Part shown: positions 710-9,565 of the stretch, one piece after another
Position numbering within the stretch: position 1 is the first letter of the stretch
Layout: the number at the start of each line of letters is the position of its first letter
Source: a virus
IMG/VR virus record: IMGVR_UViG_3300005573_000052
Length of the DNA stretch: 64,000 nt
Strand: one strand, 5' to 3'
The notes under the pieces: model-generated
Databases searched by the model: none
The model's input: the letters and a program-made list of their open reading frames with translations, nothing else
Told to the model about the DNA's origin: nothing
Translations under genes and position numbers: made by a program

Positions 710-1708
710 ATGTCCAACAAACGTCGCACAAGCGCCATATGGCAAATGCCATCAGATCAGTTCAAGACCATCGTTGCTCAGAGTTTTACTCTGACAGAGG
801 TTCTTTCGCATTTCTCAATGCGCAACGTAGGTAGTAACAATCTCACCCTCAAGCGTCGCATCAAGGAGGAAGGAGTAGACATCTCTCATTTTAGACGAAA
901 GGGTGGTGGTCGAAAGGGTCCGCGAGGCATGACACTCGAAGAGTGTATGTCCACCGTATTTATCGAAGGAAAGGTGGGATGTAAAAGCTCCGTGAGGCGT
1001 TACCTGAGAAGGTTCAAGTTGGTAGAAGAAAAATGTGCCATATGCTCACTGGGGCTAGAATGGAACGGCCAACCTCTTACACTTCAATTGGATCATATTA
1101 GTGGAGATTCTACGGACGACAGAGTGGAAAACTTGCGTTGGATATGTCCCAACTGCCACAGCCAGACAGATACCTACACCGGTAAGGCGAACAAAGGCCG
1201 GGTAGGGGCTAAAATCTTTTCACTTCCTAAAAGGACCGTTCCCACTGCCAACGAAACTTTGGTTATTACCGACAACGGAGAGACAAACATAGTCAAACGG
1301 GCTTCAATGACACGGGCCGAGATTAACGCCAAACACCGTAGCCATTGGCCATCCAAGGAGACATTGAGTGCCAAGGTATGGGAGAAGCCTCTCACTCACC
1401 TGAAAGACGAGTTTGGGTTCAAATCTATTACCTCGTTAAAGCAAATGATCAAGTTGTATCAAATACAAGCACCTCCTGTCGGATTCTGGGCTCGTTTGAA
1501 AGCCGGTTGGTCACGCGACCAAGCTATCAACCCTCCCACGCAGGCTCCGAAAAGATGCCTTCGTAAATTCACTGACGATCAAGTGCGTGAAATTCGCTCT
1601 CGCCTCGATAAAGGAGACAAACCGGCGGCTCTGGCTAGGGCCTATGGATGTAGCCACAAGACGATGCGAGATATACGAGACCGTCAACGATACGTTTCCG
1701 TCGTCTAA
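710..1708 (+). CDS. HNH homing endonuclease with C-terminal HTH
   Basis: CAIC...LQLDHISG...NLRWICPNCHSQT motif; inserted in tRNA array; GGTGTATA upstream. Confidence 0.85.
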   Translation: MSNKRRTSAIWQMPSDQFKTIVAQSFTLTEVLSHFSMRNVGSNNLTLKRRIKEEGVDISHFRRKGGGRKGPRGMTLEECMSTVFIEGKVGCKSSVRRYLRRFKLVEEKCAICSLGLEWNGQPLTLQLDHISGDSTDDRVENLRWICPNCHSQTDTYTGKANKGRVGAKIFSLPKRTVPTANETLVITDNGETNIVKRASMTRAEINAKHRSHWPSKETLSAKVWEKPLTHLKDEFGFKSITSLKQMIKLYQIQAPPVGFWARLKAGWSRDQAINPPTQAPKRCLRKFTDDQVREIRSRLDKGDKPAALARAYGCSHKTMRDIRDRQRYVSVV

Positions 1709-4189: not shown

Positions 4190-4451
4190 ATTTCAAGCAG
4201 GAGAGCGTTCGCGGCAGAGATTGCTACGGCCATCTGTCGAGGAAGTTCGCGCCAGAAAAGAAGCCGACTGGGAGGGTGGCTTGGCTTGACCGCCGTCATT
4301 CTTACCGATGACCACCACCCGCCAACACCACATGGTATCTGCAACCCGAAAGCGCCCGAGGGTAGTTCTTCCCGCCAGCAGGGCATGGTTGGGGCTCAGA
4401 CAAATGAACGCATGAAACAGAAGCGCGGCTACGTCCACTTGAAAATTTTAC

Positions 4452-5922: not shown

Positions 5923-5973
5923 TTCATTTCCTCGTTGCGCAGCAATTACGCCGCCGACGATGGCACTAGACCC

Positions 5974-7293
5974 ATGAAGACCAATACAAAATCCCCCCGC
6001 GCCAAAGTGTTTACCCACGAAGGTGCTCCCGCTGCCCACGCCACCGCCAAGCAGCAACTCCGCCGCTCCGTCATGTCCTGCATGCTCTGGGAGTCGGAAT
6101 TCCATGAAAGCGGCGAAGATATCGCCCAGCGAATCGCCTCGCTCGTTGCCAAGTGCAAACCTGAGGACGTGGCACTGATCGCTCGCGAAGCCCGCGAACA
6201 GATGAAACTGCGACATGTCCCGCTGCTCCTCGTGCGTGAAATGGCCCGCCTGCCTTCTCACCGCCCTTACGTGGCCGACACGCTTAACGCCGTCATCCAG
6301 CGCGCCGACGAACTCTCCGAGTTTCTGGCTATCTACTGGAAGTCGGGCAAAGACCAGCCTCTCGCCGCTCAGGTCAAAAAGGGACTGGCTCGGGCCTTCA
6401 CCCGATTCGATGAGTATGCCCTGAGCAAATATGACCGCGCCGGTGATGTCAAACTGCGGGATGCTCTCTTCCTCTGTCATGCCAAGCCGCAGGACAAGAA
6501 GCAAGAACGCCTGTGGAAACGACTCGTCAATGGCGAATTGAAGCCTGCCGGAACTTGGGAAGAGCAGCTTTCCGCCGGTAAGGACAAAAAGGCAGTGTTC
6601 ACCAAGTTGATCAAAGACGGTGAACTGGGCGCTCTCGCCCTGCTCCGCAACCTGCGCGGCATGACCGAGGCGGGAGTTAGCCACGAAATCATCACCCAAG
6701 CATTGGCTGGCATGAAAACCGAGCGGGTTCTCCCGTTTCGCTTCATCTCTGCCGCACGCTACGCCCCCCAGTTCGAGGCCGAATTGGAACAGGCGATGTT
6801 CAAGTGTCTTGAGGGAGTGGACAAGCTGAAGGGCTACACCATTCTGCTTGTGGACGTGTCGGGCTCCATGGATTCACCGATCAGCGCCAAGTCTGACCTG
6901 ACGCGTATCGACGCTGCTTGCGGACTCGCCATCCTATTGCGCGAAATCTGCGAACGGGTGGATATCTGCACGTTCTCCAGCGGGATAGTCGGAGTCCCTC
7001 CTCGCCGAGGATTCGCGCTGCGGGATGCCATCAAGAACTCGCAGCCCCATGCAAGCACCGATCTAGGTAGAGCACTCGATACCCTCAAGTATGGAACGGG
7101 TAAAGATCGCATCGTCGTCATCACGGACGAACAGTCCCATACGGCGGTTAATTCCCCCAAGACCACGGGTTACATGCTCAACGTCGCTTCAGCGGCAAAC
7201 GGAGTGGGTTACGGGGCCTGGAACCATATCGACGGTTGGAGTGAGAGTTGTGTGAAATTCGTGGCCGAGCTGGAGAAGCAAAGCGCCGATTGA
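5974..7293 (+). CDS. rsr: Ro60/TROVE domain RNA-binding protein
   Basis: LRRSVMSCMLWE, RHVPLLL, LALLRNLR, vWA MIDAS DVSGSM and VVITDEQS; start moved to MKTNTK. Confidence 0.95.
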   Translation: MKTNTKSPRAKVFTHEGAPAAHATAKQQLRRSVMSCMLWESEFHESGEDIAQRIASLVAKCKPEDVALIAREAREQMKLRHVPLLLVREMARLPSHRPYVADTLNAVIQRADELSEFLAIYWKSGKDQPLAAQVKKGLARAFTRFDEYALSKYDRAGDVKLRDALFLCHAKPQDKKQERLWKRLVNGELKPAGTWEEQLSAGKDKKAVFTKLIKDGELGALALLRNLRGMTEAGVSHEIITQALAGMKTERVLPFRFISAARYAPQFEAELEQAMFKCLEGVDKLKGYTILLVDVSGSMDSPISAKSDLTRIDAACGLAILLREICERVDICTFSSGIVGVPPRRGFALRDAIKNSQPHASTDLGRALDTLKYGTGKDRIVVITDEQSHTAVNSPKTTGYMLNVASAANGVGYGAWNHIDGWSESCVKFVAELEKQSAD

Positions 7294-7687: not shown

Positions 7688-7764
7688 GCGACACTCGGCA
7701 ACCGAATAGTCACCCTGCTTGCGGAGCAGAATCAGTCCCAGTTTGAATCTGGGGTGTCGCACCA
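7688..7764 (+). tRNA. tRNA-Arg(GCG)
   Basis: GCGACAC/GTGTCGC ACCA; CTGC-TT GCG GA-GCAG. Confidence 0.82.
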
Positions 7765-7772
7765 TTTTTCAT

Positions 7773-7855
7773 GCGAGCGTAGCCGAAGGGAGCTTCTATC
7801 TCCTTCCCCGTAACCGGAGCTGCAAATGGAGGTTCGACTCCTCTCGCTCGTGCCA
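7773..7855 (+). tRNA. tRNA-Arg(TCT), no D-arm at the normal position
   Basis: GCGAGCG/CGCTCGT GCCA; GGGAG-CT TCT AT-CTCCT; TTCGACT T-loop. Confidence 0.75.
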
Positions 7856-7859
7856 TTTC

Positions 7860-7935
7860 GCGCTGGTCGGCAATGTATAGTCAACCTCGTTTCGACCGAG
7901 AATCAGTGTGGGTTAGAGTCTCACCCGGCGCACCA
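7860..7935 (+). tRNA. tRNA-Arg(TCG)
   Basis: GCGCTGG/CCGGCGC ACCA; CTCG-TT TCG AC-CGAG. Confidence 0.85.
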
Positions 7936-7941
7936 TTTCAC

Positions 7942-8022
7942 GCGAACGTATCCCCTCGGTTTCCTAAACCGGCGAAAGGGTAATCGGAATCCATGGAGGA
8001 TCGTCCCCTCTCGTTCGCACCA
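7942..8022 (+). tRNA. tRNA-Arg(CCT), no D-arm at the normal position
   Basis: GCGAACG/CGTTCGC ACCA; TCGGT-TT CCT AA-ACCGG. Confidence 0.78.
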
Positions 8023-8193: not shown

Positions 8194-8283
8194 AGAGAGC
8201 CAACTGAACGAGGTTCAGGACTGCTTGGAAAGCAGCTCGGGCCGCGCAAGCGACCTACGGGGCAGCACCGTGACTCTCTGCCA
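8194..8283 (+). tRNA. tRNA-Ser(GGA)
   Basis: AGAGAG/CTCTCT GCCA; CTGC-TT GGA AA-GCAG; long variable arm. Confidence 0.85.
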
Positions 8284-9409
8284 TTTTCACCGGTCGTCCA
8301 CGTCTCCCTCGAAAAGTCGAAGACAACAATCCAAATCGTATCATCGCGTCACGTGTTACCTCGTGATTAAATCCAATGGCTAATCCAGCCTGTCGAAGAG
8401 ACCCTTTCGTTTTAAACACTTCGTAAGCTAATTGTGCCTGCTCGGCTGTTGGACGATGAAGTGGTTTACGAATGCGTTTTTGGCTCACGAGAGCCTGTTC
8501 ATGAGTATATCCCGCATGGCGTCGAACCCAATAACCTATAGGAGGTAACGCAACTCCGTATCGCTTGGCCCAACGACGAACCGAGTTACCGTTTACGCCA
8601 TAATCCTTGGCTATGTTCTCTATGGACTTACTCCACACAAGGATGGTCAACTCTTCCTTGGAAGGCCACACTACCTTACGGGAGGCCACTGCGGCAGCAG
8701 CTCGATTGCCATATATGGGCTTGTCCAGAGAACGCAAATATTCTTTCGCCTCGGGAGTCATAGCCCTAACGGATCGTTCTTTGGGGGATATCCGTATGTG
8801 CACGTCACCGAGGTCTCGCGACGTATCCGGTTCGTCTGTAGACCGAAAAACCAACCCCTCTTTGGCCATGATTCCATGAATGGTGTCGTAATTACGACCC
8901 TTAGGGGCCAAACCCAATCGCCGACACACATCACTCGGACTAGTGCATTGGGGGATTGCCTCAATATACATCTGGCGAGATACCTTGACTGTTCGTTTAC
9001 GCGTGGCGGCCCCCTTGTGATTAGGGGCTAATCCATGACAATTTCGACAAAGAACCTGAAGATTCTTTAACTCGTTATTATTATGGTTACCGTCTACGTG
9101 ATGTAACTCTATCGGTATCGGCTCTCCCTGCCATCTGTCATTACCGCATCTCTCACAGACAGGACTTTTAAGACCCTCTCGAAAAAGACGCTTCTTCAAA
9201 TTATCGCTCGCGAGAGGATACTGATTAGATAGGTAAACCTCGATAGGGCGTCCACTGTAAGGGGGCCAGTGAGACGTGTCAATCTGATTCTCGGCAAGGA
9301 GTCGTCTAATACGTTTTTTGTCTCCTCCTCCAAGAAGACGCAAAAGCATATTGCAGGAGGTTGATTCGGCGGCAAGTTGACGTAGTTGGTCGATATTAAG
9401 GGTAGTCAT
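8255..9409 (-). CDS. HNH homing endonuclease (antisense to the tRNA array)
   Basis: CERC...IELHHVDGNHNNNELKNLQVLCRNCH; start MTTLNI; GGTGTATC motif at 9420-9427 on the minus strand. Confidence 0.85.
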   Translation of the reverse strand: MTTLNIDQLRQLAAESTSCNMLLRLLGGGDKKRIRRLLAENQIDTSHWPPYSGRPIEVYLSNQYPLASDNLKKRLFREGLKSPVCERCGNDRWQGEPIPIELHHVDGNHNNNELKNLQVLCRNCHGLAPNHKGAATRKRTVKVSRQMYIEAIPQCTSPSDVCRRLGLAPKGRNYDTIHGIMAKEGLVFRSTDEPDTSRDLGDVHIRISPKERSVRAMTPEAKEYLRSLDKPIYGNRAAAAVASRKVVWPSKEELTILVWSKSIENIAKDYGVNGNSVRRWAKRYGVALPPIGYWVRRHAGYTHEQALVSQKRIRKPLHRPTAEQAQLAYEVFKTKGSLRQAGLAIGFNHEVTRDAMIRFGLLSSTFRGRRGRPVKMAESHGAAP

Positions 9410-9475
9410 GTTCACCCTAGATACACCGCTGAAGACCCGGTTTGTGTGCAATTCTCCACTTTCCGCCATTTTTAC

Positions 9476-9565
9476 GGTAGGTGAATCCGTGCAGGTCACG
9501 GAGCGGCCCTCGAAAAGCCTGCGCGCCCGCAAGGACGTTTTCTGCGACTGAAACGCCTACCGCCA
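9476..9565 (+). tRNA. tRNA-Ser(CGA)
   Basis: GGTAGG/CCTACC GCCA; CT CGA AA loop; long variable arm. Confidence 0.78.

What the first reader, a model, noticed from the sequence alone, without database searches (positions are those of the whole stretch)
7773..8022. Two Arg tRNAs (TCT, CCT) with the D-loop apparently moved to the 3' side of the anticodon arm
Seen: both have only about 7-8 nt between acceptor and anticodon stem (TAGCCGAA; TATCCCC). Both have a long segment after the anticodon arm containing a D-loop-like sequence (CCG-TAAC-CGGA; GGG-TAATCGGAA-TCC), and the 5' linker can pair with that segment (TAGC/GCTG; TATCCC/GGGTA). The same rearrangement in two isoacceptors with different stems argues for selection. 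Inference: an alternative fold that rebuilds the elbow from the variable side, in tRNAs reading the AGA/AGG codons.
Basis: partly seen in the sequence, partly recalled or inferred. Interest (0 to 1): 0.75.

Follow-up and report, generated by a model that had tools for sequence, protein, structure and literature searches.

The report
Phage arginine tRNAs with rewired D-arm
Two genes in this phage's tRNA cluster are very probably working arginine tRNAs (for AGA and AGG) that do not fold into the textbook cloverleaf: part of the D-stem and the D-loop lie after the anticodon arm and pair back to the 5' side, a design shared by many phages, missed by gene finders, and absent from the papers I could search.

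Summary
Window 7773-7855 (anticodon UCU) and 7942-8022 (CCU) have normal acceptor, anticodon and T arms and an encoded CCA. Only 8 or 7 nt replace the D-arm, and the 'variable' region is 23 or 22 nt.

Both belong to a large phage family. I collected 152 distinct members, all with Arg or Ile-type anticodons. Covariation supports pairing of the 5' linker with two segments that flank a D-loop-like bulge (U-A-R-N1-4-G-G-A):
- helix Y, 12-14 with 36-38;
- helix X, 8-11 with 47-50.

Three further results point to a canonical-like elbow and real charging:
- A Levitt-like pair covaries (A-U 125, G-C 22, G-U 0).
- The base after GG is A in Arg members and U in Ile members, matching the known position-20 identity bases.
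- Ile-type members (GAU, UAU, CAU) always have A73.

A conventional cloverleaf and a local hairpin are both not conserved. ARAGORN of 152 members and gets 2 anticodons right. Isolated phages carry unannotated copies (Pseudomonas PA11, Caulobacter Ccr10, Vibrio D419). No paper I could search describes the design.

This scan had already found the family on other DNA (at least seven follow-up reports). New here are the CCU sub-type and the tests above. Charging, decoding and the 3D fold are untested.

The parts
7773..7855 (+). tRNA-Arg(UCU), rewired D-arm, 'type A' (83 nt with encoded CCA)
   Evidence: Sequence. Rfam tRNA 28.0 bits with the D-arm deleted. Member of the 48-sequence alignment A4, 97.3% of cells paired in the proposed fold. 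RNAalifold predicts the same fold unaided.
7780..7783 (+). UCU gene: helix X 5' strand (U8 A9 G10 C11)
   Evidence: Pairs with 7819-7822. Family: 10-48 GC46/AU1/CG1; 11-47 CG35/UA9/UG3/AU1. Pairs 8-50 and 9-49 are invariant, so they are untested by covariation.
7784..7786 (+). UCU gene: helix Y 5' strand (C12 G13 A14)
   Evidence: Pairs with 7808-7810. In this gene 12-38 and 13-37 pair, and 14-36 is A.C. Family: 13-37 has four pair types and none unpaired; 14-36 is paired in 30 of 48.
7788..7804 (+). UCU gene: anticodon arm, anticodon UCU at 7795-7797, loop CUUCUAU (U33, A37)
   Evidence: All five stem pairs show compensatory changes in the family.
7808..7810 (+). UCU gene: helix Y 3' strand (C36 C37 G38)
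   Evidence: The rival local hairpin with 43-45 shows no compensatory change.
7811..7818 (+). UCU gene: D-loop-like bulge UAACCGGA (proposed equivalents A14 R15 Y16 Y17 G18 G19 A20)
   Evidence: The motif U-A-R-N(1-4)-G-G-A is kept in members retrieved with patterns that left it free. Its R covaries with the base before the T stem. The base after GG follows amino-acid identity.
7819..7822 (+). UCU gene: helix X 3' strand (G47 C48 U49 G50)
7823..7827 (+). UCU gene: connector CAAAU; its last base U55 is the proposed partner of A41 (Levitt-like pair)
   Evidence: Family table: A-U 125, G-C 22, G-G 6, A-C 1, A-G 1, G-U 0.
7828..7844 (+). UCU gene: T arm GGAGG-UUCGACU-CCUCU
   Evidence: Canonical T loop. 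The stem covaries and the G-C pair next to the loop is invariant.
7942..8022 (+). tRNA-Arg(CCU), rewired D-arm, 'type B' (81 nt with encoded CCA), anticodon at 7963-7965
   Evidence: Sequence. 34.9 bits with model R1. Aligns without gaps to Ile and Arg type-B members. 94.4% of cells paired in the proposed fold.
7952..7954 (+). CCU gene: helix Y 5' strand (CCC)
   Evidence: Pairs with GGG at 7978-7980. Type-B family 100% paired: 12-38 UA8/CG2/GC1; 13-37 CG8/GC3.
7978..7980 (+). CCU gene: helix Y 3' strand (GGG)
7981..7988 (+). CCU gene: D-loop-like segment UAAUCGGA
   Evidence: Same motif as type A. A42 with U53 (window 7983 and 7994) fits the Levitt-like pair: AU8/GC2/other1 in A6.
7995..8011 (+). 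CCU gene: T arm GGAGG-AUCGUCC-CCUCU, with A54 and U58 in place of T54 and A58
   Evidence: Sequence. The same A54/U58 swap occurs in family members L101, L104 and L132.

Best explanation
Both elements are genuine, expressed-type phage tRNA-Arg genes (UCU for AGA, CCU for AGG). They belong to a widespread, essentially phage-only family in which the D-arm is rewired rather than lost.

The fold:
- The strand after the acceptor stem (U8 A9 G10 Y11 C12 N13 N14) runs straight into the anticodon stem.
- Its partners lie after the anticodon arm. Positions 36-38 pair with 12-14 (helix Y). Positions 47-50 pair with 8-11 (helix X).
- Between the two partner segments is an 8-nt bulge that has the sequence of a D-loop (A14 R15 Y16 Y17 G18 G19 A20).
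- Stacked on the anticodon stem, X plus Y give a limb about as long as a normal D-stem plus core layers.

Proposed interactions (inferred, not shown):
- The bulge reaches the unchanged T loop (GG with psi55/C56).
- Its R forms a Levitt-type pair with the base before the T stem.
- Its last A is presented to ArgRS as the A20 identity base, together with C35, U36 and A/G73.

Shown: the anatomy, the conservation, the covariation of X, Y and the Levitt-like pair, and the identity-base correlation.
Inferred: the 3D L-shape, arginylation, decoding, and any advantage of the design.

For the CCU gene helix X is at most two A-U pairs and has no covariation support.
For: 1. The window is phage DNA: tail protein J, HNH endonucleases and a transposase. 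It carries a near-complete tRNA array. The two genes sit 4-8 nt from neighbours in a run of four Arg tRNAs (GCG, UCU, UCG, CCU), and no other UCU or CCU tRNA was found in the array.
2. 152 distinct members were found in 246 held loci. Anticodons: UCU 89, ACG 14, UCG 13, CCU 7, GCG 3, CCG 1, GAU 13, UAU 9, CAU 3.
3. Alignment A4 is 97.3% paired against 66.8% in shuffles and 38-49% when partners are slid. Helix X is 100% paired, with compensatory changes at 10-48 and 11-47. Helix Y has four pair types at 13-37.
4. RNAalifold finds X and Y unaided.
5. Type-B helix Y is 100% paired with CCC/GGG, CUC/GAG, CUG/CAG and CGG/CCG.
6. Levitt-like pair: A-U 125, G-C 22, G-G 6, G-U 0. The G members were retrieved with a pattern that left the partner free.
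7. The base after GG is A in Arg members; only one differs once seven mis-parsed cases are reread by eye. It is U in 24 of 25 Ile/CAU members. A73 is present in 25 of 25 Ile/CAU members. This matches published bacterial identity sets: Arg A20, C35, U/G36, A/G73; Ile A73, U20 (PMC9976931).
8. C35 and A37 are invariant, and the T arm is canonical.
9. AGA and AGG are used in the window's long ORFs: 68 of 502 Arg codons.
10. E. coli's translation machinery accepts a tRNA without a D-arm (PMC11551756).
Against: - No expression, end-mapping, charging or decoding data exist.
- U8-G50 and A9-U49 never vary, so half of helix X is unproven. It may instead form tertiary contacts.
- Only one nucleotide (A46) links GG back to helix X. 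That makes a fully canonical elbow geometrically tight, so the real 3D fold may differ from my model.
- In this window's UCU gene helix Y has only two pairs (14-36 is A.C).
- The window's CCU gene has an unusual T loop (AUCGUCC) and weak helix X.
- Part of the motif conservation in the first retrieval was forced by the search pattern.
- Sequences are related, so cell counts overstate the number of independent events.
Confidence: 0.8

Rival explanations
1. tRNA-like RNAs that are not decoders. For example, decoys or sponges for host tRNA-targeting nucleases or for a synthetase, or substrates of phage RNA-repair enzymes, that keep a tRNA outline without entering translation.
For: The window and related phages carry RNA-repair-type genes near the array: an RNA ligase-like protein and a Ro60/TROVE-like protein. 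13 of 89 loci with a rewired UCU gene also hold a separate canonical Arg(UCU) gene, so the rewired copy is sometimes redundant. No functional data exist.
Against: - Features needed only for charging and decoding are kept: anticodons limited to Arg and Ile-type triplets with C35 or A35, U33, A37; identity base A or U after GG; A73 in Ile-type members; a canonical T arm for EF-Tu.
- In this window they are the only UCU and CCU tRNAs found in a near-complete set.
Confidence: 0.1
2. D-armless tRNAs of the mitochondrial kind. The linker and long variable region are flexible connectors, there is no D-loop/T-loop elbow, and the GG motif is kept for another reason such as synthetase contact only.
For: The secondary structure is a three-way junction like mt-tRNA-Ser(AGY). 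A single nucleotide between GG and helix X makes the canonical return path tight (inference from the anatomy).
Against: Helices X and Y covary. The R of the bulge covaries with the base before the T stem, as R15-Y48 does. The T loop stays canonical, unlike the T loops of armless mitochondrial tRNAs.
Confidence: 0.07
3. Decayed tRNA pseudogenes that lost the D-arm by deletion and gained junk in the variable loop.
For: Default gene finders reject them. The window's array holds other degenerate-looking tRNAs.
Against: The same architecture occurs in 152 distinct sequences from very different phages, with compensatory changes in every helix and coordinated indels.
Confidence: 0.01
4. A conventional cloverleaf with another anticodon. 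ARAGORN at a lowered threshold reads 7773-7855 as tRNA-Tyr(GUA), taking the UCU hairpin as the D-arm.
For: ARAGORN -ps80 gives this call.
Against: The required anticodon stem (31-35 with 43-47) is paired in only 45.8% of cells across the family, and pair 34-44 in 1 of 48. Position 33 would be C rather than U. The UCU loop has a perfect anticodon-loop signature.
Confidence: 0.02

Closest known systems
Canonical bacterial and phage tRNA-Arg (class I cloverleaf, Rfam RF00005; e.g. E. coli argU/argW products)
   Same: 7-bp acceptor stem; 5-bp anticodon stem with a 7-nt loop (U33, C35, A37); 5-bp T stem with a UUCGA-type loop; U8 A9 G10 Y11 after the acceptor stem; a D-loop-like A-R-Y-Y-G-G-A motif; A/G73; CCA; location in a tRNA array.
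   Different: There is no D hairpin between positions 9 and 26. The D-stem 5' strand continues directly into the anticodon stem. Its partner strands and the D-loop lie 3' of the anticodon arm, so the secondary structure is a three-way junction, not a cloverleaf. Both genes fall below Rfam's gathering score, and ARAGORN misses them.
D-armless mitochondrial tRNAs (mammalian mt-tRNA-Ser(AGY), nematode mt-tRNAs; PMC7609411, PMC9427863)
   Same: A short connector between the acceptor and anticodon stems, and a three-helix secondary structure.
   Different: Those are organellar, short, with eroded T loops and no D-loop substitute, and are served by co-evolved enzymes. Here the RNA is 80-83 nt, keeps a canonical T loop and a complete D-loop motif, and has covarying long-range helices and a Levitt-like pair.
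Synthetic D-arm-less 'mini HisT' used by evolved E. coli (PMC11551756)
   Same: It shows that bacterial EF-Tu, ribosome and a synthetase can use a tRNA without a D hairpin.
   Different: It is man-made, lacks any D-loop replacement, and needed a pnp mutation for stability. That paper states that all known bacterial tRNAs are cloverleaves.
Class II tRNAs and allo-tRNAs with long variable arms or 8/4 and 9/3 acceptor branches (PMC5389517)
   Same: Non-standard tRNA geometries found in bacteria and phages by metagenome mining, with an enlarged region between the anticodon and T arms.
   Different: Those keep a normal D-arm, and their variable arm is a self-contained hairpin. Here the enlarged region pairs back to the 5' linker and carries the D-loop.

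Membership tests
Canonical cloverleaf tRNA (Rfam RF00005) | Score at or above the family's gathering threshold (29 bits) | tested here: not met
   UCU gene 28.0 bits. CCU gene not reported even at E up to 10.
Canonical cloverleaf tRNA (Rfam RF00005) | D-arm hairpin between position 9 and the anticodon stem | tested here: not met
   Only 8 or 7 nt lie there. Rfam's alignment deletes the D-arm.
Canonical cloverleaf tRNA (Rfam RF00005) | 7-bp acceptor stem, 5-bp anticodon stem with a 7-nt loop and U33, 5-bp T stem with a 7-nt loop | tested here: met
   All three helices covary.
Rewired-D-arm phage tRNA family (defined here and in earlier reports of this scan) | 5' linker pairs with the segment just before a U-A-R-N(1-4)-G-G motif located 3' of the anticodon arm (helix Y) | tested here: met
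   UCU gene: C12-G38 and G13-C37. CCU gene: CCC/GGG. Family covariation.
Rewired-D-arm phage tRNA family (defined here and in earlier reports of this scan) | Linker positions 8-11 pair with the four bases after the motif (helix X) | tested here: inconclusive
   Met for the UCU gene (UAGC/GCUG), and 10-48 and 11-47 covary. For the CCU gene only A9-U and U10-A are possible, and type-B relatives show no consistent pairing.
Rewired-D-arm phage tRNA family (defined here and in earlier reports of this scan) | R of the motif matches the base before the T stem (A with U, G with C) | tested here: met
   Both window genes have A with U. Family: A-U 125, G-C 22, G-G 6, G-U 0.
Bacterial tRNA-Arg identity (substrate of ArgRS) | C35, U36 or G36, and A73 or G73 | tested here: met
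   UCU gene with G73; CCU gene with A73. C35 is invariant in A4. Identity set from PMC9976931.
Bacterial tRNA-Arg identity (substrate of ArgRS) | A20 in the D-loop | tested here: inconclusive
   An A follows GG in both genes and in all but one Arg member, against U in Ile members. That this A sits where A20 does in 3D is inferred.
Bacterial tRNA-Arg identity (substrate of ArgRS) | Arginylation by ArgRS | not testable with these tools
   Needs an enzyme assay or charged-tRNA sequencing.
D-armless mitochondrial-type tRNA | Connector instead of a D-arm, with no D-loop substitute and a relaxed T loop | tested here: not met
   The connector is present, but a conserved D-loop motif, a canonical T loop and long-range covarying pairs are also present.
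Class II tRNA (long variable arm) | Self-contained variable-arm hairpin plus a normal D-arm | tested here: not met
   The local hairpin 36-38/43-45 shows no compensatory change and breaks where 13-37 and 14-36 covary. There is no D-arm.

The most novel reading that the evidence does not exclude
Phages maintain a distinct, non-cloverleaf tRNA architecture that the host translation apparatus still charges and uses. The rewiring is selected because it makes these Arg and Ile tRNAs poor substrates for host tRNA-targeting defence nucleases or decay pathways that read the normal D-arm. The design arose once and spread to new anticodons by identity switching (A20/U20 plus the anticodon).
Probability: 0.25. 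Interest if true: 0.9.

Novelty: new variant of a known kind. Interest (0 to 1): 0.8.

Why it matters
A 2024 paper states that all known bacterial tRNAs are cloverleaves (PMC11551756). A natural, widespread tRNA topology outside organelles would show several things:
- The L-shape can be built from a different strand order.
- It would give structural biologists a new test of what ArgRS, IleRS, EF-Tu, RNase P, the CCA-adding enzyme and the ribosome really read.
- Phage tRNA repertoires are under-counted, since ARAGORN of 152 and isolates such as PA11, Ccr10 and D419 carry unannotated copies.
- It could supply naturally orthogonal-looking scaffolds for genetic-code engineering.
- It raises a concrete question about phage-host conflict over tRNAs.

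Tried and rejected
- ARAGORN default and Rfam at gathering thresholds find neither gene.
- Single-sequence MFE folding is uninformative (z-scores -1.46 and +0.08).
- No whole genome is held for the window.
- blastn of the window region against the phage collection found only the neighbouring tRNA-Ser.
- A first blastn with wrong minus-strand coordinates gave nothing and was redone correctly.
- Conventional cloverleaf Tyr(GUA): rejected.
- Pairing of TAT with GTA in the CCU gene: not complementary.
- Hairpin closing the D-loop motif (39-47, 38-48): disfavoured. The member with A11-U47 and C10-G48 (L058:252-334) keeps helix X but breaks that hairpin.
- Cellular origin: the genome-contig scan gave 10 hits in 185,579 species. 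Seven are real members, all on MAG contigs. The Catonella and Polaribacter hits are coding-sequence chance matches.
- Eight paper searches found no description of the design.
- A 3D model was not possible with the tools at hand.

Full report
**What is in the window.** The window is phage DNA. It encodes a lambda-J-like tail protein, HNH endonucleases, a transposase and a Ro60/TROVE-like RNA-binding protein. No host genome is held for it. Its first 8.2 kb is a dense tRNA array. ARAGORN at default finds 13 genes. With relaxed or mitochondrial settings about 37 appear, covering all 20 amino acids.

Near the end of the array four Arg tRNAs lie 4-8 nt apart:
- GCG, 7688-7764;
- UCU, 7773-7855;
- UCG, 7860-7935;
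- CCU, 7942-8022.

The finding concerns the second and fourth.

**Checking the observation.** Each has a perfect 7-bp acceptor stem, then 8 nt (UAGCCGAA) or 7 nt (UAUCCCC). Next comes a 5-bp anticodon stem with a textbook loop (CUUCUAU or UUCCUAA), then 23 or 22 nt, a 5-bp T stem, the discriminator and CCA. ARAGORN misses both at default. Rfam's tRNA model gives the UCU gene 28.0 bits (threshold 29) by deleting the D-arm and inserting 20 nt. It gives the CCU gene nothing. Single-sequence folding says little.

**Relatives.** Loci around homologues of the neighbouring TROVE gene held two more genes of the same build: a UCU gene in L017 and a CCG gene in L009. I then ran three DNA patterns over IMG/VR.
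Of those fetched, 45 distinct genes had this architecture.
- Two patterns anchored on the 5' half left the 3' half free. They brought in further members with variation in the D-loop-like segment.

A structural scan of all 246 held loci then gave 152 distinct members.

| Amino acid | Anticodons (count) |
|---|---|
| Arg | UCU 89, ACG 14, UCG 13, CCU 7, GCG 3, CCG 1 |
| Ile-type | GAU 13, UAU 9, CAU 3 |

ARAGORN at default of the 152 and gets the anticodon right in 2.

**The fold, type A (the UCU gene).**
- In 48 distinct ungapped sequences, the fold 'acceptor / X (8-11 with 47-50) / Y (12-14 with 36-38) / anticodon arm / T arm' is 97.3% paired. Shuffles give 66.8%, and sliding the partners gives 38-49%.
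- Helix X is 100% paired. Pair 10-48 is GC46, AU1, CG1. Pair 11-47 is CG35, UA9, UG3, AU1.
- U8-G50 and A9-U49 never vary, so they are neither supported nor refuted.
- In helix Y, 12-38 is always C-G. Pair 13-37 is GC36, CG7, AU4, UA1 with none unpaired. Pair 14-36 is paired in 30 of 48 with five pair types. The 18 exceptions all fall in the CGAG/CGAA class to which the window gene belongs.
- RNAalifold, given only the alignment, predicts X, Y and an extra 15-33 pair.
- Microbacterium phage Pumpernickel has lost two bases on each strand of X together.
- Some members carry a small extra hairpin after X.

**The fold, type B (the CCU gene).** This gene aligns without gaps to a second sub-type. 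Its closest look-alikes are Ile tRNAs with GAU, CAU and UAU anticodons, and Arg tRNAs with CCU and CCG. Its helix Y (11-13 with 37-39) is 100% paired in 11 sequences, through CCC/GGG, CUC/GAG, CUG/CAG and CGG/CCG. Helix X is at most two A-U pairs in the window gene and is not consistent among relatives. I therefore treat it as unproven for this gene.

**Is the bulge a D-loop?** The 8 nt between the two partner strands (UAACCGGA and UAAUCGGA in the window) match A14 R15 Y16 Y17 G18 G19 A20 preceded by U. Three tests support the equivalence.
1. The R covaries with the base just before the T stem: A-U 125, G-C 22, G-G 6, A-C 1, A-G 1, G-U 0. This is the pattern of the R15-Y48 Levitt pair. The G members came from a pattern that did not constrain the partner. 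Both states occur within the Arg, GAU, UAU and CAU groups.
2. The base after GG is A in Arg members. The seven apparent U cases in the table are regex mis-parses, seen in the listing. Among Arg members not forced by the first pattern it is A70, T3, G1 before that correction. It is U in 24 of 25 Ile/CAU members.
3. All 25 Ile/CAU members have A73. Arg members have A, G or U.

Published bacterial identity sets are A20, C35, U/G36, A/G73 for Arg, and A73, U20 and others for Ile (PMC9976931). C35 and A37 are invariant in type A.

**Rival folds.**
- The lowered-threshold ARAGORN call of tRNA-Tyr(GUA) for 7773-7855 needs a stem that is paired in only 45.8% of family cells.
It breaks exactly where 13-37 and 14-36 covary.
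- A hairpin closing the motif through 38-48 and 39-47 is contradicted by L058:252-334, which keeps X as UACA/UGUG.

**How it probably works.**

Shown:
- The 5' strand 8-14 is continuous with the anticodon stem and pairs with two segments that lie after the anticodon arm.
- The D-loop motif and the T loop are kept.

Inferred:
- X, Y and the 15-33 pair stack on the anticodon stem. That gives 8 layers where a normal tRNA has 7: 26-44, four D-stem pairs, 8-14 and 15-48. The limb length is therefore nearly preserved.
- The bulge supplies G18/G19 to the T loop, R15 to the Levitt pair and A20 to ArgRS.

A difficulty: only one base links GG back to helix X, so the elbow cannot be strictly canonical. 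I could not model 3D.

Function as a decoder is plausible on three grounds.
- E. coli's machinery accepts a D-arm-less tRNA (PMC11551756).
- The window's long ORFs use AGA and AGG, 68 of 502 Arg codons.
- I found no other UCU or CCU tRNA in the array.

Why the design is kept is unknown. 13 of 89 loci with a rewired UCU gene also hold a separate canonical one, which hints at a property beyond simple supply.

**Distribution.** Members occur in isolated phages and are not annotated as tRNAs there.

| Phage | Anticodon |
|---|---|
| Pseudomonas phage PA11 and relatives | UCU |
| Pseudomonas phage Boevelstad | UCU |
| Caulobacter phages Ccr10, Ccr2, Ccr29 (fold checked in Ccr10) | ACG |
| Microbacterium phage Pumpernickel (Zooman matches by blastn only) | UCU |
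| Vibrio phage D419 (285 further Vibrio records match by blastn only) | ACG |
| crAss-like Kehishuvirus 'tikkala' | Ile GAU |

In PA11 the gene overlaps the end of an annotated HNH endonuclease CDS. In the Kehishuvirus it fills a 90-nt gap in the annotated tRNA row. blastn also matches Streptomyces phages and Maribacter phage Panino, which I did not check further.

In one genome for each of 185,579 prokaryote species, a narrow pattern hit 10 stretches. Seven are real members, all on metagenome-bin contigs.

**Novelty.** Eight literature searches found no description. A 2020 review of non-canonical tRNAs does not mention phages at all. A 2024 paper states that all known bacterial tRNAs are cloverleaves. 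This scan's own records show the same family reported on other genomes in at least seven follow-up reports. My analysis was done before reading them and agrees. The Levitt-like covariation, the position-20 and A73 identity correlation, the type-B CCU gene and the list of isolates are what I tested here.

**Verdict.** The design is a new structural variant of tRNA and of high interest. Function and 3D fold await experiment.

Noticed in passing
L105:6304-6383 and 6217-6296; L177:7568-7647; L245:2702-2781; L187:1329-1408; L193:2915-2994; L249:588-670: The rewired design also serves isoleucine-type tRNAs (GAU, UAU and CAU anticodons). These have U instead of A after the GG and always A73. Some differ from each other mainly in the anticodon, which suggests identity switching within the family.
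   Followed up: partly
window 7688-7764 and 7860-7935: The two conventional-looking Arg tRNAs (GCG, UCG) that flank the rewired ones have weak 3-bp D-stems, D-loops without GG, and T loops UUUGAAU and UUAGAGU, which lack C56. They seem to lack the usual elbow contact, while the rewired genes keep GG and the UCG of the T loop.
   Followed up: partly
window 8000-8006; also L101:5062-5144, L104:3569-3651, L132:13347-13429: The T loop begins AUCGU, so T54/A58 is replaced by A54/U58. Both partners of the intraloop pair are swapped in all four cases seen.
   Followed up: no
L177:6598-6680 region, L197:11283-11365 region, L195:10634-10716 region, L046:5764-5856, L065:915-1008, L093:1949-2042: Longer members (about 90-94 nt) carry an extra small hairpin inserted between helix X and the AAAU connector, like a true variable arm added to the rewired fold.
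   Followed up: no
window 4193-4442: Sub-threshold match to archaeal-type RNase P RNA (26.2 bits against a gathering score of 84) inside the tRNA array. An earlier first-reader note reads it as a minimal phage RNase P RNA.
   Followed up: no
window 5935-7293: Ro60/TROVE-like RNA-binding protein (phrog_850, E 1e-48) in the middle of the tRNA array. Homologues at 38-62% identity lie on 26 IMG/VR contigs, several beside tRNA arrays.
   Followed up: partly
NC_007808.1 47672-47754 (L247:596-678); also MG676466.1 and MZ089731.1: In Pseudomonas phage PA11 and relatives the rewired tRNA-Arg lies under or next to CDS annotated as HNH or homing endonuclease. The CDS ends there may be over-extended, and the tRNA is not annotated.
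   Followed up: partly
L112:791-1039: One phage contig holds a rewired Arg(UCU), a canonical Arg(UCU) and a rewired Arg(CCU) side by side.
   Followed up: no
window 710-1708 and 8255-9532: HNH endonuclease genes interrupt or flank the tRNA array, as in many related loci.
   Followed up: no
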